Source: a phage. Taken from it: a DNA stretch of 50,699 nucleotides. The notes beneath the pieces were generated by a model, which did no database searches, had not been told where the DNA came from, and saw nothing but the letters and a program-made list of their open reading frames with translations. Shown in pieces: positions 4,415 to 48,929 of this stretch (the first letter of the stretch is position 1; each line of letters opens with the position of its first letter). Location of the stretch: sequence record PZ150740.1. The stretch is one strand, 5' to 3'. The position numbers and the translations under genes were made by a program.

Positions 4415-4458
4415 ATTATACCTGGCCCCACATTTGAGTTTTAACAAAAAGTGCTATT
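4415..4458 (-). promoter_or_regulatory. box promoter unit (-10 TATAAT, 17-bp spacer)
   Basis: Perfect box 4438-4458; hairpin GGGCC/GGCCC around -10. Confidence 0.55.
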
Positions 4459-5351
4459 TACACTTTGACCTTCCACTTAACCATCGTTCCGCGCTTGATG
4501 CTGATCTCACCCGCAACAGTCCGGTTTTTAGTGCCGCCATAGTGAAGCAGGAGAATAACAACATCATCATGAATTTCGATCGTCTTTGGTGTAGCCGTTA
4601 ATTCATACCAAGTGCCGTCATCAAGCCGGACTCCTTTTAGCGTGGCTGCAACTGGCATATCTTCAATCGCGCCCTGCGTTACGATTTCTTGATAGGCAAA
4701 GGCACTCTTATCAATACGCCAGCCTCCAGGCGCTTTCATTTCGGCGACCGCTTTGTGGATCTCCTCGCCAATGATTTTTTGAATTGAAGTCTTTCCGCCG
4801 CCGAATGGTGTTTCTCCAAACAAGTGTTTTGTAATGTCTTCCACGTAGTAAATCTTATCCTCTTCGTTGTGCGGATTGAATTTGTTGTGACCATTGACAA
4901 AGAAATCAACTTTCAACTCTGATTTCTGACCATCGCTATAAACGCCATTGTCGCGCGATGTGTAGCGAATCGTTGAATTACCAGCGGAGCGGAACGTGAT
5001 CGGATACTTGATATTGTCCACGCTTAAGCACCACAGCTTTTTGTAGTCGCATGTTTTCATATTTACCATCGGAATCTCTGCGCGTTCCGTTGAGCGCACT
5101 GGTAACACCTGGCCCTTATATGGCTTGTAGTGCAAGCATGTGTAGCCTGGCATTGCATAGCCATAGTCTTTAAGTGCGTTGTAGTGCTTGTTATGTGCAT
5201 CAATGAAGTGTTCAATCTCCATGCTTGATGGCGCACGCTTGTAGCTATGCAAATCAACCTTATGGCAGGTTTTTTCATCGGTAAAAATGTAATGACCAAT
5301 ACCGCGAGATTCGAAGGTGATCGGGAATTTAATGTCAGCAAGTTTTAACAT
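4458..5351 (-). CDS. hypothetical protein with internal duplication
   Basis: ORF track; repeated segments ADIKFPITFESRG / VDNIKYPITFRSAG. Confidence 0.5.
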   Translation of the reverse strand: MLKLADIKFPITFESRGIGHYIFTDEKTCHKVDLHSYKRAPSSMEIEHFIDAHNKHYNALKDYGYAMPGYTCLHYKPYKGQVLPVRSTERAEIPMVNMKTCDYKKLWCLSVDNIKYPITFRSAGNSTIRYTSRDNGVYSDGQKSELKVDFFVNGHNKFNPHNEEDKIYYVEDITKHLFGETPFGGGKTSIQKIIGEEIHKAVAEMKAPGGWRIDKSAFAYQEIVTQGAIEDMPVAATLKGVRLDDGTWYELTATPKTIEIHDDVVILLLHYGGTKNRTVAGEISIKRGTMVKWKVKV

Positions 5352-5868: not shown

Positions 5869-5913
5869 ATTATGCCAGGCTTTGCGCCTGGCGTTTTAAC
5901 AAAAAGTGCTATT
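5869..5913 (-). promoter_or_regulatory. box promoter unit (-10-like CATAAT)
   Basis: Perfect box 5893-5913; spacer is palindrome GCCAGGCgcaaaGCCTGGC. Confidence 0.55.
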
Positions 5914-6169
5914 TAATATCTGTTGTGACTTGCTGGTGCATTACGTTCTTTCCGCTGTTGTACGTGCTATCCGTTGCGCCTTTGCAATTGGTGTAATAGA
6001 TGGCGCGACCGTTATCATAGAATCTGTATGCTGTGCATCCGTCAACAGTGAACAGGCGACCGACCTTGAAATCTGACTCCGCGCCTACGACAACCGTTGA
6101 TTCTGATGCCTTTTCGCATCCGGTCAGGAGTGTCATTGCCGCCAAAACGCCGATTAATGCCTTTTTCAT
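5909..6169 (-). CDS. lipoprotein (possible Cor-like superinfection exclusion protein)
   Basis: Signal peptide with lipobox LLTGC; small Cys/Tyr-rich mature part; Cor assignment is inference. Confidence 0.5.
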   Translation of the reverse strand: MKKALIGVLAAMTLLTGCEKASESTVVVGAESDFKVGRLFTVDGCTAYRFYDNGRAIYYTNCKGATDSTYNSGKNVMHQQVTTDIK

Positions 6170-6633
6170 TATTGCTCCTCCTCTTTGATGATTTCGCGGA
6201 TCATATCCTGGTAGCGGCTTACGCCCTCACAAGCTCCAGCCAGTTTATCCCCTTCCAGGTCCACGATGTTCGGAATTGCTGCCAGTAAGCGATCGGCAAA
6301 CTTTTTGATCGCCCTTGCCTTGATAGCTGGCAATTCTTCGGGTGTGATGATTTTCCTTTTCGATTCTCGGACCATGCGGAAAACGTAAAATTTATCATCT
6401 TCCGTTTCCTCAACCTTGATGCTTACCCGACCTGCGGCCCTTACTTCTGGAACGCGGTTGATAATGGTCCGGCTGTAGGATGAACTGCGCGTGATCTTGT
6501 AGCAGTCATCGCCGCTTAACATTCCGGCCAGGTCAATTAGTGACATTTTATACTCTTCAATATCGCCACTAGCCAGGCGGCGACCAAGCTCGCGAAGCCA
6601 ATCGCAATAGTCCTTAGTGGTCTTCTGTTCCAT
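6169..6633 (-). CDS. hypothetical early protein (start adjusted to MEQKTTK)
   Basis: ORF track frame; strong RBS GGAGGAAAGGAA before ATG at 6633; first gene after leftward consensus promoter. Confidence 0.5.
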   Translation of the reverse strand: MEQKTTKDYCDWLRELGRRLASGDIEEYKMSLIDLAGMLSGDDCYKITRSSSYSRTIINRVPEVRAAGRVSIKVEETEDDKFYVFRMVRESKRKIITPEELPAIKARAIKKFADRLLAAIPNIVDLEGDKLAGACEGVSRYQDMIREIIKEEEQ

Positions 6634-6664
6634 TTCCTTTCCTCCAGTTGTTGACTGTTGGCGC

Positions 6665-6692
6665 ATTATAAAAGCTATTTGGTGCGTGTCAA
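6665..6692 (-). promoter_or_regulatory. near-consensus sigma70 promoter (TTGACA-16-TATAAT) for leftward early genes
   Basis: Minus strand reads TTGACAcgcaccaaatagctttTATAAT immediately upstream of gene 6169-6633. Confidence 0.6.
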
Positions 6693-7114
6693 TGTTTTTG
6701 TTGTATTCAAAACGTTACCAATATCGAAAAACTACAAAATCATGCGCAAGTTGTTGATTTCAGGGCTGTTATTTTTCTGTTCACGCTGTTAACGCAATCC
6801 GCCGGAAAAAGTATATATACATATGCAATCCGCCGCGCGCGCAACTATCCATATATACCCACACACAACCAGACCATAACCAACAAAAAGCACTGTAACA
6901 GTGAGAACAAAAAGAAAACATTATAGATATATATAAATAAATAATCTTTATTTTCAATGTATTATAGAGGGATTTTTTTGTTTTTTCCGTTTTCGCTACA
7001 CCGGAAAACCGCGCGGAAACACGCCGCCTGAAATCGGTAACAGGGGTGAACAAAAGACAACAACCACTGACAGCCAGGCGGAAAAGTGAGGCAAGAGGGG
7101 AAGGTTTCACTATC

Positions 7115-7220
7115 TCCCCTGCAACCAATGATTAAACGTGATTACTTTTCTCATCAAATTTGCAAAGGCAATCATCATTTTGACGTGATTTGATTACGAA
7201 TGATTACTTTTGATTATTTC
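7115..7220. repeat. cluster of GATTA(C) direct repeats (iteron-like) in divergent control region
   Basis: About six copies of (T)GATTAC/GATTT within ~100 bp, e.g. tgattacttttc twice. Confidence 0.35.
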
Positions 7221-7246
7221 GATCACAATCCTGGCGCTAACCGTCA

Positions 7247-7291
7247 AATAGCACTTTTTGTTAAAACTCAGACCACCTGATCGGGTACATT
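7247..7291 (+). promoter_or_regulatory. box promoter unit (-10-like TACATT)
   Basis: Perfect box 7247-7267; leader ACACACATCGAAACGAA. Confidence 0.55.
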
Positions 7292-7325
7292 ACACACATC
7301 GAAACGAACCGCTCAGGAGATAGCA

Positions 7326-7598
7326 ATGAACATCAGCAAAACCACTTTCAACTTCGCTAAGCGTCACGGTCTGGATCTGACTGTTGAAGACTTCGGCGAT
7401 GTTCTGCAACTCTGCATATGGGAAGCAGATAACGATTGCGAGTGGCTTTGCTCTTACCGTATCAACTACGATTGCTTGACCTGGCACGGCAATATCTATC
7501 TGCCGCAAGAAGTGAAGGAAGAATTGCCAGCGACTATCAACAACGAAGTTTTCTTGCGTCAGGTGCTGAAATTTATCAGTGAGGAGATCAAGAAGTGA
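7326..7598 (+). CDS. hypothetical early protein
   Basis: ORF track; box unit 7247-7291 upstream. Confidence 0.55.
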   Translation: MNISKTTFNFAKRHGLDLTVEDFGDVLQLCIWEADNDCEWLCSYRINYDCLTWHGNIYLPQEVKEELPATINNEVFLRQVLKFISEEIKK

Positions 7599-8330: not shown

Positions 8331-8374
8331 ATAGCACTTTTTGTTAAAACTCAATCCTCTCATTCCTGTACATT
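8330..8374 (+). promoter_or_regulatory. box promoter unit (-10-like TACATT)
   Basis: Perfect box; leader ACACGCATCGACAACGAA. Confidence 0.55.
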
Positions 8375-10171: not shown

Positions 10172-10756
10172 GTGCGCATACAGCATGAGAATATCGAATA
10201 CGTTAACGTCTGGATTGATGAAAGATTTTACCACCGCGCGCGCTGGGAGGAATGGGGCATTCCTGACTTTATTATGGCATTTCCACCATGCACCGACCTT
10301 GCAAATAGCGGATCTCGCCATTGGGCCAAAAAACGCCTTGAGAATCCATCGTTCCAGGATGAGGCCGCCGACACTTGCAGGATCGCGGCTGATATAGCTG
10401 ATTATTTCGGTGTTCCTTACATGATCGAAAATCCGGTTGGCAAGTTGTCAACGTTATGGCGAAAGCCTGATTATACGTTCCATCCGTGCGATTACGCTGG
10501 CTATCTGCCGGAAGATGATAAACATCCCGACTTCCCTGATATTATTCCGGCGCGGGATCGCTACTTTAAGAAAACGTGCCTCTGGACTGGCAACGGCTTT
10601 GTTATTCCTCCACGCGCTTTAATCCTGCCGAAAGAGGAAGACAAAGATAATCCAGGCTGGGCCAAAACTGGCGGCAAGTCATCGCGCACAAAGATGATCC
10701 GCTCCCTCACTCCGCGCGGATTTGCTCGCGCCGTCTTTGAGTCAAACTCAAAATAG
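10172..10756 (+). CDS. cytosine-C5 methyltransferase-like protein (catalytic core; N-terminus uncertain, frame open from 10055)
   Basis: FPPC (PC-motif-like), ENP(V)G (ENV-like), PARDRYF and GNGFV motifs in C5-MTase order; no ATG for motif-I region. Confidence 0.4.
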   Translation: MRIQHENIEYVNVWIDERFYHRARWEEWGIPDFIMAFPPCTDLANSGSRHWAKKRLENPSFQDEAADTCRIAADIADYFGVPYMIENPVGKLSTLWRKPDYTFHPCDYAGYLPEDDKHPDFPDIIPARDRYFKKTCLWTGNGFVIPPRALILPKEEDKDNPGWAKTGGKSSRTKMIRSLTPRGFARAVFESNSK

Positions 10757-10796
10757 CACTTTTTGTTAAAAGCCAGGTGTAAAAACCTGGCATAAT
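10752..10796 (+). promoter_or_regulatory. box promoter unit (-10-like CATAAT)
   Basis: Box with 1 mismatch; spacer palindrome GCCAGG-tgtaaaaa-CCTGGC. Confidence 0.55.
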
Positions 10797-13586: not shown

Positions 13587-13631
13587 AATAGCATTTTTTG
13601 TTAAAACGCCCGGCCTAGTGTCGGGTATATT
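13587..13631 (+). promoter_or_regulatory. box promoter unit (-10-like TATATT)
   Basis: Box with 1 mismatch; 40-bp near-identity to unit at 16802-16846 on the opposite strand. Confidence 0.55.
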
Positions 13632-17871: not shown

Positions 17872-17916
17872 ATTATGGCGCAATCCATCGCGCCAGTTTT
17901 AACAAAAAGTGCTATT
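17872..17916 (-). promoter_or_regulatory. box promoter unit upstream of Dam gene (-10-like CATAAT)
   Basis: Perfect box 17896-17916; spacer hairpin GGCGC/GCGCC. Confidence 0.55.
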
Positions 17917-20412: not shown

Positions 20413-20889
20413 ATGAAAGATGCACGAATTGCAGTGTCTACGGGTGAGATCGACAAGCGCACTATTAACGGTAACAACGGAACGCGACGAGGTAAAGACA
20501 AAAAGCCACGAAAACACCGAACCGGATTTCTTATCCTGCGAGATGAGGTAAAAGCAAGCCTGAAATCTCGCCTTGACATTCTGATCGAGTATTACGGCGG
20601 TGTTCCTGCTATGGCTCGGCGTCTGCGCGTATCTCAGCAGGTAGTTAACCAATGGCGAAAGCGTGGTATGATTTCAGCCGCCGGAGCGCAAAAGGTGCAT
20701 AACGACTACAAATATAATGGATGCAAAGGATACCGCGCCTCGTTTTGTCGTCCAGATCTGCGGTTTGACTCTAACGGTAAGCCCATTACTACCCGTTGCG
20801 ACAAATACGAAATGTTGCGCGTAGTCAAAAATTCAGACTACGAACCTGGTGGGCGATTCTACAAAGGTGATAACAGCACGAATAGCTAA
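20413..20889 (+). CDS. putative HTH DNA-binding regulator
   Basis: Segment GVPAMARRLRVSQQVVNQWRKRG resembles Cro/YdaS-type HTH; basic N-terminus. Confidence 0.45.
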   Translation: MKDARIAVSTGEIDKRTINGNNGTRRGKDKKPRKHRTGFLILRDEVKASLKSRLDILIEYYGGVPAMARRLRVSQQVVNQWRKRGMISAAGAQKVHNDYKYNGCKGYRASFCRPDLRFDSNGKPITTRCDKYEMLRVVKNSDYEPGGRFYKGDNSTNS

Positions 20890-24645: not shown

Positions 24646-25098
24646 TTAGAATGGTATATCATCGTCAAAGTCAATCGGAGGCTGATTGCTTTGCTGTGGC
24701 TGCTGTTGAGTGTTTTGTTGCTGTTGCTGTTGTGGTTGCCCCCAACCTCCTTGCGTTCGCTGTTGATATTGTTGCTGACTTTCCCCACGCTGGCTAAATA
24801 GCAAGTTTGCAAATCCGCCAGGCTGCACGGTGCTGTAAATCTTTCCGTTGTATTCTCGCGTTTCAACTCGCAAGGTATCGCAGGAAACAGAAATAACCTT
24901 GCCTACCTGGAACGCCTCAGCATACCAACCATTCAGGCCGTCTGTTTTCGCGTTAAAGAAAAATACATAGTTTGTATACTGCCAATTGCCTTCACGGTCT
25001 TTATATCGTTCGGAAAGCTCAACAACATATAGCGTGCTGCCGTTAGGCATTTGCTTTACTTTTGGCTCTTTTCGGATCTCACCTGTAATAACGTGCAT
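24646..25098 (-). CDS. ssb: single-stranded DNA-binding protein
   Basis: Gln/Gly-rich linker and acidic C-terminal tail DFDDDIPF; start adjusted to MHVITGEI after RBS. Confidence 0.85.
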   Translation of the reverse strand: MHVITGEIRKEPKVKQMPNGSTLYVVELSERYKDREGNWQYTNYVFFFNAKTDGLNGWYAEAFQVGKVISVSCDTLRVETREYNGKIYSTVQPGGFANLLFSQRGESQQQYQQRTQGGWGQPQQQQQQNTQQQPQQSNQPPIDFDDDIPF

Positions 25099-25112
25099 TT
25101 TGTTTTCTCCTA

Positions 25113-25140
25113 TGACAAAAGGGGCGCAAGCGCCCCGTTT
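25113..25140 (-). terminator. rho-independent terminator after Erf gene
   Basis: GGGGCG-cttg-CGCCCC followed by TTTTGT on minus strand. Confidence 0.5.
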
Positions 25141-25141
25141 A

Positions 25142-25798
<657 letters not shown>

Positions 25799-39730: not shown

Positions 39731-40094
39731 TCCTCCTTAATATCGGACGATAAGCCGCCGTGATGTTAGTCTGCCTGACTGGTCTTGCTTCAACGACAAC
39801 ATAACGTTCGCCATCAATTTCAATCTGATAACCATTTTTGATCTCAGTTTCATTGGTGAATATCCCCAACTTGTCGGTTACTCGGATTGTTTCACCGTCA
39901 ACCTCTCTAGTCCTCGGAGATCTAACAAGCCCCTTTATCATCACTGAAATCTCCGGCTTGGTAACTTCCTCTCCGCCGATAATCTCAACCCCTCCCTGCT
40001 GCGTGATGCACTTAAACATACCGTTAGCATCGCTGAAAAAGTTAATCCCAGCCGTAGCCATTCTTGCAATCTCATTGTAGTTCATCGGCAGCAT
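39714..40094 (-). CDS. head-tail connector / head closure protein (by position)
   Basis: ORF track; synteny. Confidence 0.4.
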
Positions 40095-46466: not shown

Positions 46467-46530
46467 ATCTCCATAATAAAAAAGGCTGGAAAAATCCAGC
46501 CTTGATTATATAACTTTTTAGCAATTAGTG

Positions 46531-48099
46531 CTATTTATTGCGTAGACCAGCCAGCTTTTTCATCCTTGCCACCGGATCATCTGCCAAATTCATTTCGACG
46601 TTAACAGCATCAACTATATTATCGACAATATCATCATGGGGATGAGAATCATCAAAAGTGAATGCTGCAACCTCTGCCAGTATCTCAGGCAGCATGGGGT
46701 GATTTTCTGGCAGTGCCACACGTCCGGCCCTCATCACTGGCGCGGCGTCCATTGCTCGCGTTACCTTGTCATTGCTTCGCTGAACGGGATTTATATCAAT
46801 CTGGATCTTCTTTTTGGCCCCCTGAATCAAACCCGTGCCGCTGGCCTTATCCTCAATGTGGATACGTCGCAAGCTGCCACACTCCTTATTGCGCTTCCAG
46901 CACTGATTAACGAAGGCAATAAAATTTAATTCAAGATCCGGCGCTTCCCACTTTCCGCGAATGCCATCAATGAAGTAAACGCGATTCTTATACATCCCCC
47001 AATAACAAAAAACTGAATAGTCGTTAAGCTCTCCGGCCTTCTGCGCGGTATCTCCAGTAATAAATGTGTATTCAAAGCGATCCGGTTTTGGTAGTGCGCA
47101 TTTTTCGCCGCTGCCGTAATACTGGAACCACTCTGTTTTAAACACGTTCCCGCCAAGCGCGATTGGTTGCTGTTGGTATTGGCTGGCGAACGTGTAAGGA
47201 TCTGCATTGCGCAATGCAAGCAATTCCTCCGCGCTTTCCTTTGCAGGCCAAAATGAATAATGAGCAACGCCATCTATCATAACTGGCTTACTTGACAGCA
47301 CATCACGATCAAATTCAGGCTTCAACCAATCAGGAAGCGTCTCGCGGTATTCTTTCGTAACCAGCGCCGGAATGCTCACAACTTTAAACTCGATACCACC
47401 CATCCCGCCATTAAGCATAAACCAGGTGGAATCATTAACGTGTAGTCGCTGTTGCACCATAACAATCGGCGTGGTGTCTTTCATTCGACGCGATCGCACT
47501 GTGTTTTTTAACCGCATGTGGATAGCCTCACGCTTTACCTTAGAAAGCATATCATCCGGCTTGTCTGGATCGTCAAGAACCAGCATACCAGTAAAACCAT
47601 CGTCCATATAGCCGCCACGCAAACCTGTTACCTGGCCGCCAATAGAACGTGAGTTAACTTGCAATTTAACCTTGCCGCCTTCGGTGACTATCAGATCTTT
47701 AGCGCTCGCCTTTGCCAGTTTTCCTGGCCATAGCTCTTGCCACTCAGGAGAACCAATAATCTCCTTTATCCGGTTGCTGTTTTGCTGGACAAGGCCATCA
47801 CTAAACGAAAGGTTAAGGTTTCTCACTTTCCGGCTTTTCAATGACGCGTAGGGTGACATGTGGATCGAGAAAATCTCAGTCTTACCGCTACCTGGCGTAA
47901 TGTTGAAAATCACATTCTGCGACTCTCCATTGATGATCTTCTCTACCTCACTGCACAATAAGCTAAAATGCCAGTTGCTCTGGAATTTTTGCCCCTGCAA
48001 TAACTGGAACCAGATTCTGATCATCTTTTCGAATGAATGCTCACTGATTTCTTTAATGGCTCGCTTTTGCGCCGCCGTCAAATCTTCCCATATGATCAT
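46531..48099 (-). CDS. terminase large subunit
   Basis: Walker A-like NITPGSGKTE, Walker B MLVLDDPDK; size 522 aa. Confidence 0.85.
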   Translation of the reverse strand: MIIWEDLTAAQKRAIKEISEHSFEKMIRIWFQLLQGQKFQSNWHFSLLCSEVEKIINGESQNVIFNITPGSGKTEIFSIHMSPYASLKSRKVRNLNLSFSDGLVQQNSNRIKEIIGSPEWQELWPGKLAKASAKDLIVTEGGKVKLQVNSRSIGGQVTGLRGGYMDDGFTGMLVLDDPDKPDDMLSKVKREAIHMRLKNTVRSRRMKDTTPIVMVQQRLHVNDSTWFMLNGGMGGIEFKVVSIPALVTKEYRETLPDWLKPEFDRDVLSSKPVMIDGVAHYSFWPAKESAEELLALRNADPYTFASQYQQQPIALGGNVFKTEWFQYYGSGEKCALPKPDRFEYTFITGDTAQKAGELNDYSVFCYWGMYKNRVYFIDGIRGKWEAPDLELNFIAFVNQCWKRNKECGSLRRIHIEDKASGTGLIQGAKKKIQIDINPVQRSNDKVTRAMDAAPVMRAGRVALPENHPMLPEILAEVAAFTFDDSHPHDDIVDNIVDAVNVEMNLADDPVARMKKLAGLRNK

Positions 48100-48626
48100 T
48101 AAAGTTGCTCCAGAATATCAATCACAGCCTCTTTCACCTCATCGGCAGTTACTGCGTCAATGCTTGCATTAGCTGCCGCGCTCGCTTCAACGCTCACTGT
48201 TGCTGGTTTCTCTACGCCGATCTCTTTACCGATAAATCCAGCGTTAATCATGTTATTTGCCGCAAGCTGGAATTTTTGCTCGTAAATTACTTTATCAACA
48301 AACTCCATCACATCGCAGAATCCAGGCTCTTTACGCCACTTGCTTACAGCCGCCTCAGTAACTCCGAGATACAAGCTGAATCCGTTTACCGTGAAAACGC
48401 GAGGCTTGTAAACTCTGCTCTCGTACACGTCACCCTGAAAGGAAGCAGTTTCAGCCGCCTGAATGTGATTCTCTTCGGCCCAAGTGAAATAGCGGATCGC
48501 CATATCAAAAACCTGTTCCGGCGTGTACTTGTGGCGGTTATTTAGCGTGACAATATCGCCATAAGTTTTATTGTATAACTCTTTGAAATTTAATGCCTTT
48601 ACAGCAGGCTCAACGTTTTTAGCCAT
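48099..48626 (-). CDS. terminase small subunit (putative; start adjusted to MAKNVEP)
   Basis: Position upstream of and overlapping terL (ATGA); RBS AAGGAGGA. Confidence 0.5.
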   Translation of the reverse strand: MAKNVEPAVKALNFKELYNKTYGDIVTLNNRHKYTPEQVFDMAIRYFTWAEENHIQAAETASFQGDVYESRVYKPRVFTVNGFSLYLGVTEAAVSKWRKEPGFCDVMEFVDKVIYEQKFQLAANNMINAGFIGKEIGVEKPATVSVEASAAANASIDAVTADEVKEAVIDILEQL

Positions 48627-48669
48627 TGTTAATCCTCCTTTGGTTAGATGCCTGATTATACCAAACAAC

Positions 48670-48704: not shown

Positions 48705-48929
48705 TTAAGCTGTATATTTTACTTTTCCATCTTTGGCTCGAATGGAATTTAGGATCTTGCTACCGATCATCAGGTATTGACCACGGACAAGCCATTTCTT
48801 TTGTTTTTCGCTCCAGATTGCAGAAGCGTACCAACCTTTATTAATCACGAACTTATAAGCAAAGCGCATGACAACGGAAAAGATAATGATAGCCATGATA
48901 AAACCAATGCAGAAAGATAATGCGATCAT
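48705..48929 (-). CDS. small membrane protein
   Basis: ORF track; hydrophobic N-terminus. Confidence 0.45.
   Translation of the reverse strand: MIALSFCIGFIMAIIIFSVVMRFAYKFVINKGWYASAIWSEKQKKWLVRGQYLMIGSKILNSIRAKDGKVKYTA

What the first reader, a model, noticed from the sequence alone, without database searches (positions are those of the whole stretch)
7115..7220. Iteron-like GATTAC repeat cluster beside the rightward early promoter
Within about 100 bp upstream of the first rightward box unit there are repeated GATTA(C)-containing elements (tgattaaacgtgattacttttc; cgtgatttgattacgaatgattacttttgattatttcg). Short direct repeats at this density in a non-coding divergent region are typical of operator arrays or replication-origin iterons.
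Basis: seen in the sequence. Interest (0 to 1): 0.45.

Follow-up and report, generated by a model that had tools for sequence, protein, structure and literature searches.

The report
Repeat array beside phage packaging cut
A real, non-random cluster of TGATTA repeats in a T1-like coliphage lies 18 bp from the point where related phage genomes physically end, so it is most likely the terminase docking site that starts DNA packaging, not a replication origin or a simple operator.

Summary
Five TGATTA hexamers (7129, 7139, 7191, 7201, 7211, all on the + strand) lie on one face of the helix. This is the densest non-trivial hexamer cluster in the 50.7-kb window, and 0 of 20,000 local shuffles reach it. 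The window is a Warwickvirus (T1-like, Drexlerviridae). The cluster sits in the 660-bp divergent non-coding region, 32-119 bp upstream of the first rightward 'box' promoter.

The iteron/operator reading is only partly supported. No initiator or regulator gene co-varies with the array, and the repeats are 6-7 bp, not iteron-sized.

The decisive context is packaging. The pac end was mapped to this same region in T1, TLS and SU57. The genome records of three phages from three genera (XY3, G29-2, PHB17) end at the same homologous nucleotide ±1, which is window 7110|7111, 18 bp from the first hexamer. TGATT-type motifs recur at similar offsets from that end in the other genera. The phage's small terminase is a P22 gp3 homologue.

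Best reading (about 0.45): the array is the terminase-recognition part of the pac site. Binding itself is untested, and an upstream regulatory role for the adjacent promoter remains a live rival.

Side note: the 19 'box' repeats match the E. coli marbox consensus perfectly.

The parts
7129..7144 (+). Proximal repeat pair: TGATTA-aacg-TGATTA(C), 10-bp spacing, at +19 and +29 from the inferred genome end
   Evidence: positionally matched by TAATCA-ct-TGATTA (+22/+29) in G29-2 and AATCA/AATCA (+13/+23) in PHB17
7150..7177 (-). Central segment with inverted relatives of the repeat on the - strand: TGATGAG (7150-7156) and TGATGATTG (7169-7177). The same 9-mer TGATGATTG lies 7 nt before position 1 (the assigned pac) of phage TLS
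7186..7216 (+). Distal repeat group: degenerate TGATTT (7186), then TGATTAC-gaa-TGATTAC-ttt-TGATTAT at 7191/7201/7211, exact 10-bp period, +76 to +101 from the inferred end
   Evidence: G29-2 has TGATT at +78 and +98
7110..7111 (.). Inferred pac cleavage point / physical genome end (between 7110 and 7111). Packaging is inferred to run leftward (towards lower coordinates) from here
   Evidence: The record end of XY3 maps exactly here. The record ends of G29-2 and PHB17 fall at the homologous nucleotide ±1. [quoted passage not shown] Direction comes from the TLS pac-HindIII fragment and the T1 terminal-repeat annotation
7248..7291 (+). First rightward 'box' promoter unit: ATAGCACTTTTTGTTAAAAC (7248-7267), an 18-nt spacer, then -10-like TACATT (7286-7291). 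The predicted start is about 7298. This is a neighbour of the array, not part of the repeats
48099..48668 (-). Small terminase (TerS), a P22 gp3 homologue and the proposed binding partner. The true start is probably the ATG 42 nt inside this ORF
   Evidence: Pfam GP3_package E=4e-11; PDB 3P9A E=2e-15; relatives annotate the later start
46531..48099 (-). Large terminase (TerL), the nuclease/ATPase that would make the cut
   Evidence: Pfam Terminase_6C E=1e-10; annotated as terminase large subunit in relatives

Best explanation
The TGATTA cluster is the terminase-recognition part of this phage's pac site, the place where headful DNA packaging starts. Proposed mechanism: late in infection the ring-shaped small terminase (a P22 gp3-type TerS) binds the hexamers. 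They lie on one face of the helix in two groups (7129/7139 and 7186-7216), with inverted copies between them, so the DNA is wrapped or bent. The large terminase is thereby positioned to cut the concatemer at 7110|7111, 18 bp from the first hexamer. Packaging then runs leftward through the AT-rich core and the left early arm towards the terminase genes. The array stays on the non-packaged side of the first cut, like pacL of SPP1. Shown here: the array is real, unique in the genome and helically phased; the phage has a gp3-type TerS; pac was mapped to the homologous region in three relatives; and three related genome records end at one homologous nucleotide next to the array. Inferred: that this end is the terminase cut in this phage, that TerS is the protein that reads the hexamers, and the direction of packaging.
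For: (1) Real, unique, phased array. (2) Pac lies in this non-coding region in relatives. The T1 record opens inside the homologous divergent region and annotates a 2.8-kb terminal repeat from position 1. TLS position 1 is the authors' assigned pac: the paper's 5,882-bp pac-HindIII and ~2.7-kb EcoRV fragments fit the only HindIII site at 5876 and the EcoRV site at 2733. It lies 118 bp from the first box, in TGAT-hexamer-rich DNA. The SU57 end was chosen from PhageTerm plus an abrupt step in read depth, and its authors state that pac lies in the corresponding region of T1-like phages. (3) Base-level coincidence. The XY3 record ends at gtttcac|tatctcccct (= window 7110|7111), G29-2 at gtttctct|atcccct and PHB17 at |gattcccct. 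That is ±1 nt across three genera. Korf et al., who sequenced G29-2, state in general that contigs were linearised at points where most reads ended abruptly, with other phages arranged by reference to relatives. By my estimate, three of about 213 randomly opened records would coincide within ±1 nt with an expectation of about 0.006. (4) Conserved geometry despite sequence turnover. The first TGATT/AATCA motif lies +13 to +22 from that end in all three. A second group lies at +76..+101 (window) and at +78/+98 (G29-2). In T1, the genome-wide maximum of TGAT density straddles record position 1. (5) TerS is a gp3 homologue whose N-terminal 100 residues are well conserved across array types, in line with a shared TGATT core. 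(6) By analogy from my own knowledge, the P1 pac site (TGATCA/G hexamers) and SPP1 pacL/pacR are arrays of short phased repeats bound by the small terminase.
Against: No read-level terminus data exist for this phage. How the XY3 and PHB17 record ends were chosen is undocumented, and XY3 is deposited as circular. For G29-2 the paper's linearisation statement is general, so it is not confirmed that this particular record was opened at read ends. The T1 and TLS pac positions have roughly 100-bp resolution, and the final TLS base was picked by a weak resemblance to P22 pac. By homology they fall about 60-80 bp from the shared record end. The hexamers are on the + strand here but on the opposite strand in T1, TLS and PHB17. 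Hanrivervirus and WaterSpirit have few TGATT motifs and instead carry GGAATA/TTATTCC arrays where the distal group lies. Both hexamer groups lie on one side of the inferred cut, unlike P1. The array and the TerS allele occur in the same 61 records, but so do the regulator, helicase and portal alleles, so co-occurrence is a clade effect. There is no match to the P22 pac 12-mer. The array's position just upstream of a promoter fits a transcriptional role equally well on geometry alone.
Confidence: 0.45

Rival explanations
1. Upstream regulatory array for the first rightward promoter. A phage regulator or a host transcription factor binds the phased direct repeats at about -82 to -169 and activates or shuts off the adjacent box promoter. 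Candidate phage regulator: the Cro/YdaS-like HTH protein at 20413-20889. Candidate host factor: a winged-helix response regulator, which reads direct repeats on a 10-11 bp period.
For: The array ends 32 bp upstream of the box unit that heads the whole right-hand early operon, and this is the only box promoter with free upstream DNA. Relatives carry different repeat arrays (GGAATA/TTATTCC) at the same place, as expected of type-specific operators. The phage encodes an HTH protein (Pfam YdaS_toxin E=1e-6, P22_Cro E=6e-4, both below their curated Pfam score cut-offs). On the - strand the repeats read GTAAT-N5-GTAAT, which resembles, from memory, the CpxR consensus GTAAA-N5-GTAAA.
Against: There is no overlap with the -35/-10 elements. 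The repeats are direct rather than the palindromes typical of Cro-type dimers. Neither flanking gene co-varies with the array. [quoted passage not shown] This reading does not explain why three genome records end 18 bp away. The host-factor resemblance is recalled, not tested.
Confidence: 0.25
2. Replication-origin iterons. A phage initiator binds the repeats and opens the nearby AT-rich core (6917-6982) to start replication.
For: Direct repeats lie in the longest non-coding region of a phage whose origin is unknown; the TLS paper reports finding no iteron-type repeats in the TLS genome. An AT-rich core (GC 0.22) lies 150-250 bp to the left and is conserved as far as Citrobacter and Salmonella phages.
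Against: The repeat core is 6-7 bp, against 18 bp for the lambda iterons annotated. No initiator gene is adjacent. The helicase (87-88% identical) and primase (72-81%) change little between phages with unrelated arrays. The AT-rich core has its own flanking repeats, (A/G)TAACA and a 25-nt unit in three copies, which are better iteron candidates and are shared across array types. GC skew only follows gene orientation.
Confidence: 0.08
3. Architectural DNA. The phased TGATTAC-TTTT units form intrinsically curved DNA or a nucleoid-protein (Fis/IHF/H-NS) site that stimulates the neighbouring promoter or assists another complex, with no sequence-specific phage partner.
For: The hexamers and their T-tracts repeat on a 10.2-10.4 bp period, which is the signature of curvature. 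The region is AT-rich (GC 0.35-0.36).
Against: There is no IHF core consensus in the array. The exact 11-mer TGATTACTTTT repeated twice, and hexamer identity 5 of 5, exceed what curvature alone requires. Curvature was not modelled. This reading is compatible with, rather than exclusive of, the pac reading.
Confidence: 0.1
4. No function: local duplication or slippage of a 10-bp unit in tolerant non-coding DNA.
For: The two groups look like a 24-nt duplication (75% identity, 72 bp apart, family D3). In the few variants seen, substitutions are not clearly depleted in the hexamers.
Against: TGATT-type motifs recur at matching offsets in other genera whose intervening sequence is unrelated. The cluster is the genome-wide density maximum both here and in T1. 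All 61 carriers keep it at 97-100% identity, although the surrounding block is equally conserved.
Confidence: 0.05

Closest known systems
Phage P1 pac site (TGATCA/G hexamers bound by PacA; described from my own knowledge, not checked here)
   Same: Short hexamers beginning TGAT, repeated in two groups (4 + 3 in P1, 2 + 3-4 here) over about 100-160 bp, next to a terminase cleavage point in a headful-packaging phage.
   Different: The P1 hexamers contain Dam GATC sites and flank the cut on both sides, with an IHF site between them. Here TGATTA has no GATC; only one GATC follows the array, at 7221. Both groups lie on one side of the inferred cut, and no IHF core is present. The small terminase is unrelated to PacA, being P22 gp3-type.
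Phage SPP1 pacL/pacC/pacR (from my own knowledge)
   Same: A precise cut (pacC) with small-terminase binding repeats and phased A/T tracts on the non-encapsidated side (pacL). The repeats are thought to wrap around a TerS ring.
   Different: In SPP1 the site overlaps the promoter and 5' end of the TerS gene itself. Here it lies about 9 kb from the terminase genes, beside an early promoter. No pacR-like counterpart was identified on the packaged side; only GGAAA repeats were noted there.
Phage P22 pac (22-bp asymmetric site GAAGATTTATCTGAAGTCGTTA inside gene 3; sequence as quoted in PMC11447400)
   Same: The recognition protein is homologous: window TerS against P22 gp3, PDB 3P9A, E=2e-15. The P22 core contains GATTTAT, loosely like TGATTAT/TGATTT.
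   Different: P22 uses a single non-repeated site inside the TerS gene. The window has no match to the 12-mer core at up to 2 mismatches in this region or in terS, and pac lies far from terS.
pac region of T1-like phages as currently described (T1, TLS, SU57)
   Same: The same genomic place: the long divergent non-coding region between the two early arms, 80-160 bp from the first box repeat.
   Different: Published descriptions stop at restriction-map or read-depth resolution. According to its authors the SU57 pac 'was not identified', and TLS offers only 'AGATTT'. No repeat array, precise conserved cut or TerS-binding model has been described in the papers I could read.
Lambdoid ori iterons / plasmid iterons
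   Same: Direct repeats in one orientation near an AT-rich stretch.
   Different: Iterons are 17-22 bp (18 bp in lambda), lie within or beside the initiator gene and co-vary with it. None of this holds here.

Membership tests
pac site of a headful-packaging phage | Phage encodes a small/large terminase pair and belongs to a group that packages by the headful mechanism from pac | tested here: met
   TerS GP3_package E=4e-11 and PDB 3P9A E=2e-15; TerL Terminase_6C. T1, TLS and SU57 are reported as pac/headful phages.
pac site of a headful-packaging phage | A preferred physical DNA end (first cut) maps at or next to the element | tested here: inconclusive
   Met for relatives. Pac was mapped to the homologous region in T1, TLS and SU57. 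The record ends of XY3, G29-2 and PHB17 coincide ±1 nt at window 7110|7111, 18 bp from the array. The paper describing G29-2 says contigs were linearised where reads ended abruptly. Not shown for this phage itself, and the method used for XY3 and PHB17 is unknown.
pac site of a headful-packaging phage | The small terminase binds the element specifically | not testable with these tools
   Needs EMSA or footprinting. The co-occurrence of the array and the TerS allele (61 = 61 records) is a clade effect, because the regulator, helicase and portal alleles give 59-61 as well.
pac site of a headful-packaging phage | The element is unique in the genome | tested here: met
   It is the only TGATTA cluster. 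TGATTACTTTT occurs only here, and TGAT density peaks here.
P1-type pac (Dam-controlled hexamers flanking the cut) | Hexamers contain GATC and lie on both sides of the cleavage site, with an IHF site between | tested here: not met
   TGATTA lacks GATC. Both groups lie to the right of 7110|7111. No WATCAANNNNTTR match lies within 7100-7230.
P22-type pac | A single asymmetric site resembling AAGATTTATCTG inside the TerS gene | tested here: not met
   There are only 3 matches at up to 2 mismatches in the window, fewer than the 6.45 expected by chance. None is in terS or in the array.
Replication-origin iterons | Three or more direct repeats of about 17-22 bp | tested here: not met
   The conserved core is 6-7 bp on a 10-bp period. 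The only longer unit (24 nt) has 2 copies at 75% identity.
Replication-origin iterons | A cognate initiator gene adjacent to, and co-varying with, the repeats | tested here: not met
   The flanking genes are DUF7174 and small proteins of unknown function, and they do not co-vary with the array.
Replication-origin iterons | An adjoining AT-rich unwinding element and origin activity | not testable with these tools
   An AT-rich core exists 150-250 bp away. Origin activity needs marker-frequency or plasmid-replication assays.
Operator array of a phage repressor or activator | Sites overlap or abut the core promoter, or lie at a defined activator position | tested here: inconclusive
   The array spans about -82 to -169 from the predicted start. 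It does not overlap the -35/-10 elements, but the position is compatible with upstream activation.
Operator array of a phage repressor or activator | A cognate DNA-binding protein is identified and co-varies with the sites | tested here: not met
   The neighbours do not co-vary. The only recognisable HTH protein (20413-20889) follows the clade, like every other core gene.

The most novel reading that the evidence does not exclude
The array is the sequence-level pac recognition element of T1-like phages, which has not been defined so far: phased TGATT-type hexamers read by a P22 gp3-type small terminase, placed about 9 kb from the terminase genes. Because it abuts the first 'box' promoter, which is itself a perfect class II marbox, terminase binding late in infection could also switch off the right-hand early operon. 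Packaging initiation and early-gene shut-off would then be coupled at one locus.
Probability: 0.12. Interest if true: 0.6.

Novelty: new member of a known kind. Interest (0 to 1): 0.45.

Why it matters
T1-like phages (Drexlerviridae) are common therapeutic candidates, notorious laboratory contaminants and generalized transducers. Their pac site is known only to lie 'somewhere' in this non-coding region. A base-level cut position, plus a candidate terminase-binding array, would make several things directly testable. These are packaging specificity and transduction frequency, and the design of packaging-competent plasmids or packaging-defective phages. It would also give annotators a principled point at which to open these genomes. 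If the array is instead a regulatory site, it marks the control point of the whole right-hand early operon.

Tried and rejected
(1) Rfam at permissive threshold: only a chance snoRNA hit, E=0.93. RNA folding of either strand is no better than shuffles, z = -1.1 and +0.25. An RNA element is rejected.

(2) A second sigma-70 promoter inside the array: the scan finds none. By hand the best candidate is TTGATT-16-GATTAT, 8 of 12 matches. Rejected as weak.

(3) A collection-wide scan for TGATTA-N4-TGATTA-N4-TGATTA returned 120+ unrelated tandem repeats in giant viruses and other contigs. It was uninformative, and that scan was wasted.

(4) Genome-wide protein co-variation and allele-set comparison: confounded by clade. 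These only exclude the immediate neighbours as partners.

(5) Host-factor ideas recalled from memory (Fur, CRP, FNR, ArcA, OmpR, CpxR, IHF): none fits well by eye. Only IHF was formally scanned, with no hit in the array. These remain leads, not results.

(6) The lambda 'esp' test. Drexler reported (recalled from memory) that T1 starts packaging between lambda P and Q. The lambda 38-46 kb stretch has no TGAT-dense cluster comparable to T1's. There is one exact 13-mer match to the T1 sequence spanning record position 1, with E about 0.03. It is recorded under 'noticed' and not used as evidence.

(7) Looking for more record ends at the SU57 junction: the output is ranked by coverage, so split records were not shown. 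Uninformative.

(8) The T1 genome paper and papers for XY3 and PHB17 are not held in the library.

(9) GC skew follows gene strand only.

Full report
WHAT THE WINDOW IS. The 801 bases around the finding are 98% identical to Escherichia phages swan01, mar001J1, SECphi27, tonnikala and about 40 others. Their records classify them as Drexlerviridae, Tempevirinae, Warwickvirus. The window is therefore a T1-like virulent coliphage.

The finding lies in a roughly 660-bp stretch without credible genes (6667-7325). On the left is a leftward DUF7174 gene. Its ORF is 6169-6666, but the real start is probably the ATG at 6633, because a perfect sigma-70 promoter overlaps the ORF's first codons (TTGACA-16-TATAAT, 6692..6665, - strand). 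On the right is a rightward 90-aa gene at 7326-7598.

THE OBSERVATION. TGATTA occurs five times on the + strand, at 7129, 7139, 7191, 7201 and 7211. Three copies are TGATTAC. The 11-mer TGATTACTTTT occurs twice, and only here. A degenerate TGATTT sits at 7186. Between the two groups, the - strand carries TGATGAG (7150-7156) and TGATGATTG (7169-7177).

None of 20,000 dinucleotide-preserving shuffles of the 106-bp region reaches five TGATTA. Scanning the whole window, no other complex hexamer reaches this density. TGAT/ATCA density (10 per 120 bp against a mean of 1.86) is the window's maximum. The five hexamers fall on one face of the helix: resultant 0.97-0.99 at a 10.2-10.4 bp period, reached by 3 of about 20,000 random placements. 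The unit is a 6-7 bp core on a 10-bp period in two groups, not a long iteron.

THE NEIGHBOURING 'BOX UNIT'. ATAGCACTTTTTGTTAAA occurs 19 times in the window at up to 3 mismatches, against 0.12 expected. Most copies are followed after about 18 nt by a TATAAT-like hexamer and a conserved CATCGAAACGA leader. The copy at 7248-7267 has TACATT at 7286-7291, which predicts a start near 7298. The TGATTA array therefore spans about -82 to -169. It is beside the core promoter, not on it.

This 21-nt repeat is already described for TLS, T1 and Rtp. Its function is unknown and is explicitly listed as an open question (Supplementary Table S1).

COMPARISON WITH RELATIVES. Tiwna and 60 other records carry the same array at 97-100% identity, and nothing carries it at lower identity. 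It is an all-or-none cassette.

WaterSpirit (also Warwickvirus) and the Hanriverviruses pSf-1, damhaus and G29-2 have unrelated sequence at the same place. They still show a TGATTAATCA or TAATCA-nn-TGATTA element where the first pair lies, and TTATTCC/GGAATA inverted arrays where the distal group lies. T1 (Tunavirinae), TLS (Tlsvirus) and SU57 (Braunvirinae) also have TGATT-rich repeats in the homologous region: TGTGATTGTTGC twice, GATTAC twice and CGATTAACA three times in T1, and TGATTTGATTTGATTAGATTTG in TLS. A TGATT-type motif cluster is thus a family-wide property of this region, while its exact form varies.

WHO COULD BIND IT: CO-VARIATION. A genome-wide tblastn of all window ORFs against tiwna, WaterSpirit, pSf-1 and T1 shows the following.
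- The DUF7174 neighbour is only 29% identical in tiwna, which has the same array.
- The right-hand neighbours are 92-100% identical in WaterSpirit, which has a different array.
So neither flank encodes the specificity partner.

Everything else follows the clade. The array (61 records), the TerS gene (61), the HTH regulator gene (61 at 95% or more), the helicase (61) and the portal (59) define the same set. Co-variation therefore cannot single out a partner. None of the ten flanking proteins has a significant match to a known DNA-binding fold at sequence level. The only recognisable HTH protein is the Cro/YdaS-like product of 20413-20889.

THE PACKAGING CONTEXT. Three independent lines place the pac end of T1-like phages in this very region.

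(a) The T1 reference record is opened inside the homologous divergent region and annotates the 2.8-kb terminal repeat from position 1. Synteny (window 4458-5351 matching T1 ST70) shows that the T1 + strand corresponds to the window - strand.

[quoted passage not shown] In the record the only HindIII site in the first 9.5 kb is at 5876 and an EcoRV site is at 2733. Record position 1 is therefore the assigned pac. It lies 118 bp from the first box, in the sequence ...TGATCGttataTGATCAgaTGATGATTGATGtgtg|AGATTTTGTGATTGaaatTGATTTGATTTGATTAGATTTG.

(c) For SU57, the end was chosen from PhageTerm candidates at an abrupt change in read frequency. The authors state that pac, though not identified, lies in the corresponding region of T1 and other T1-like phages. 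That end is 3 nt from a TGATT motif.

Measured from the first box, these three ends map to window 7086-7168.

A BASE-LEVEL COINCIDENCE. Three further genome records end at one homologous nucleotide, shown here in window orientation.
- XY3 (Warwickvirus, near-identical to the window here): ...aaggtttcac|tatctcccctgcaaccaaTGATTA, which is window 7110|7111.
- G29-2 (Hanrivervirus): ...gtgtttctct|atcccctccacac...TAATCActTGATTA.
- PHB17 (another Tempevirinae lineage; its 90-aa protein is 66% identical): |gattcccctcacAATCAgtaatAATCA.
Haarsle ends 8-9 nt further right.

[quoted passage not shown] All three records run from this point in the T1/TLS direction.

With about 213 related records opened at random, my own arithmetic gives about 0.006 for the expected number of triples coinciding within ±1 nt anywhere in a 50-kb genome. 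Here the coincidence also falls inside the 1.3% of the genome where pac was mapped. I therefore take 7110|7111 as the probable pac cut.

Caveats apply. I could not read how the XY3 and PHB17 ends were chosen, and XY3 is deposited as circular. For G29-2 the paper's statement is general and allows arrangement by reference to relatives when ends were not detected. By this homology the nominal T1 and TLS starts are off by about 60-80 bp, which is within the resolution of restriction mapping.

GEOMETRY RELATIVE TO THE END. Offsets of TGATT (+ strand) or AATCA (- strand) motifs from the end are:
- window: +19, +29, +60(-), +76, +81, +91, +101
- G29-2: +22(-), +29, +78, +98
- PHB17: +13(-), +23(-), +54(-)
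The box lies at +138, +136 and +148 respectively. Similar offsets persist between window and G29-2 although the sequence between the motifs is unrelated. This argues for function tied to this locus. Because the cut and the promoter are at a fixed distance from each other, the geometry does not by itself say which of the two the array serves.

THE TERMINASE. The product of 48099-48668 (- strand) matches Pfam GP3_package (E=4e-11) and P22 gp3 (PDB 3P9A, E=2e-15). Its first roughly 100 residues are well conserved from T1 to the window, consistent with a shared core motif. The window has no P22-type pac 12-mer.

MOST LIKELY MECHANISM. I propose that the TerS ring binds the phased hexamers, bends or wraps the DNA, and positions TerL to cut at 7110|7111. 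Packaging then proceeds leftward, in the direction given by the TLS pac-HindIII fragment and the T1 repeat annotation. The array stays on the non-packaged side, as pacL does in SPP1.

Shown: the array's reality, uniqueness and phasing; the TerS family; pac mapping in relatives; and the coincident ends.

Points against this reading:
- The motif is in the opposite orientation in T1, TLS and PHB17.
- TGATT motifs are scarce, and GGAATA arrays are present instead, in Hanriverviruses and WaterSpirit.
- Both hexamer groups lie on one side of the cut, unlike P1.
- There are no direct data for this phage.
Confidence is about 0.45.

RIVALS. An upstream regulatory array for the box promoter (0.25) fits the position and the type-specific turnover. 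It lacks a partner and does not explain the coincident ends. Iterons (0.08) fit poorly: the repeat size is wrong, there is no adjacent initiator, and the replication proteins are nearly unchanged between array types. Better iteron candidates, (A/G)TAACA and a 25-nt unit in three copies, sit around the conserved AT-rich core. Curved DNA or a nucleoid-protein site (0.10) is compatible with, and may be part of, the pac reading; no IHF core is present. No function (0.05) is unlikely given the cross-genus positional conservation. An RNA element is rejected.

COMPARISON WITH WHAT IS KNOWN. Functionally the closest models are P1 pac (TGATCA/G hexamers) and SPP1 pacL. The array fails the defining P1 features of GATC content, flanking both sides of the cut, and an IHF site. 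It also fails the P22 feature of a single site inside terS. It is therefore not a member of those specific types, although it may work like them.

It belongs to the loosely described 'pac region of T1-like phages'. The papers I could read give no sequence determinants for that region. TLS offers only 'AGATTT', and the SU57 authors say their pac site was not identified. I rate the finding a new member of a known kind, of moderate interest.

SIDE OBSERVATION WORTH FOLLOW-UP. The 19 box units match the published E. coli marbox consensus 5'-GCAnnWWnTGnnAAA-3' with zero mismatches: 19 matches against 1.7 expected. They are in the forward orientation. For the 7248 unit the site is centred at about -40 from the predicted start, and the other units have a similar box-to--10 spacing. 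This is the class II MarA/SoxS/Rob geometry defined in that paper.

No paper in the library contains both 'marbox' and 'Drexlerviridae'. This would answer the open question posed in the TLS paper. It is only a consensus match so far.

Noticed in passing
window, 19 sites (e.g. 7251-7265 +, 4440-4454 -, 8334-8348 +, 1325-1339 -, 46517-46531 -): The family-wide 21-nt intergenic 'box' repeat aaATAGCACnnnTTGnTAAAA has no known function and is listed as an open question in PMC11447400. It matches the published E. coli MarA/SoxS/Rob marbox consensus GCAnnWWnTGnnAAA with 0 mismatches at 19 sites, against 1.7 expected. The sites are in forward orientation about 18 nt upstream of a -10-like hexamer, centred about -40 for the 7248 unit, which is class II marbox geometry. 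No MarA/SoxS homologue is encoded, which suggests use of the host factors; Rob is constitutive.
   Followed up: partly
window 6917-6982, with flanks 6767-6791, 6896-6920 and 7037-7062: An AT-rich core (GC 0.22) is conserved at about 83% in distant Citrobacter and Salmonella Drexlerviridae, where nothing is annotated. It is flanked by three copies (one inverted) of a 25-nt GTAACAG...AACAAAA unit. In relatives it is flanked by 6-8 ATAACA/TGTTAT repeats. This is a better candidate for the unknown replication origin than the TGATTA array.
   Followed up: partly
window 6692-6665 (- strand) and ORF 6169-6666: A perfect sigma-70 promoter (TTGACA-16-TATAAT, 12/12) drives the left arm, whereas the right arm starts with a box-type promoter. 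The same asymmetry is seen in T1 and TLS. The promoter overlaps the first codons of the 165-aa ORF, so the DUF7174 gene probably starts at the internal ATG (6633, 154 aa), as annotated in tiwna.
   Followed up: partly
L169 (T1) 48835-48836 plus 1-11; L180 (lambda) 39898-39910: The 13-mer TTGTTGCATGGTG, which spans T1 record position 1, occurs exactly once in lambda 38-46 kb, inside gene P (BLAST E about 0.03 in that 8-kb search). From memory, Drexler reported that T1 starts packaging lambda DNA at a site between P and Q. This may be chance, or it may be the basis on which the T1 record was opened.
   Followed up: partly
L003 (pSf-1) about 1770-1815; L004 (damhaus); L002 (WaterSpirit) about 2130-2175; L169 (T1) 48760-48800: Where the window has its distal TGATTA triple, Hanriverviruses, WaterSpirit and T1 carry TTATTC(C) twice and GGAATA(A) twice as an inverted array on a 9-bp period, centred on TGATTAAT. 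This looks like a second, different protein-binding module next to the box promoter.
   Followed up: no
window 6794-6804 and 6825-6835: An exact 11-nt direct repeat, GCAATCCGCCG, occurs 31 bp apart and brackets a TATATATACATAT stretch in the left half of the non-coding region.
   Followed up: no
box units at 5895-5912 (-), 10753-10770 (+), 13588-13605 (+), 17898-17915 (-) and others: The spacer between the box and the -10-like hexamer often holds a GC-rich hairpin, for example GCCAGGCgcaaaGCCTGGC. Many boxes start directly at the TAA stop codon of the upstream gene. The unit may combine a terminator or attenuator with a promoter.
   Followed up: no
phage collection hits: 15-20 records named 'Campylobacter phage' (MG0656xx, host C. 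jejuni, unannotated) match this coliphage region at 85-94% identity. They look like T1-like coliphage genomes, probably contaminants or mislabelled records.
   Followed up: no
L174 (pSf-1) 25054-25524: The annotated pSf-1 small terminase diverges completely from all relatives after about residue 105 and ends early. This is consistent with a frameshift (sequencing error or real) in that record.
   Followed up: no
window 6747-6759 (- strand): The only perfect IHF core consensus (WATCAANNNNTTR) in the non-coding region lies near the leftward promoter, not in the TGATTA array. There are 5 such sites in the window against 3.6 expected, so this may be chance.
   Followed up: no
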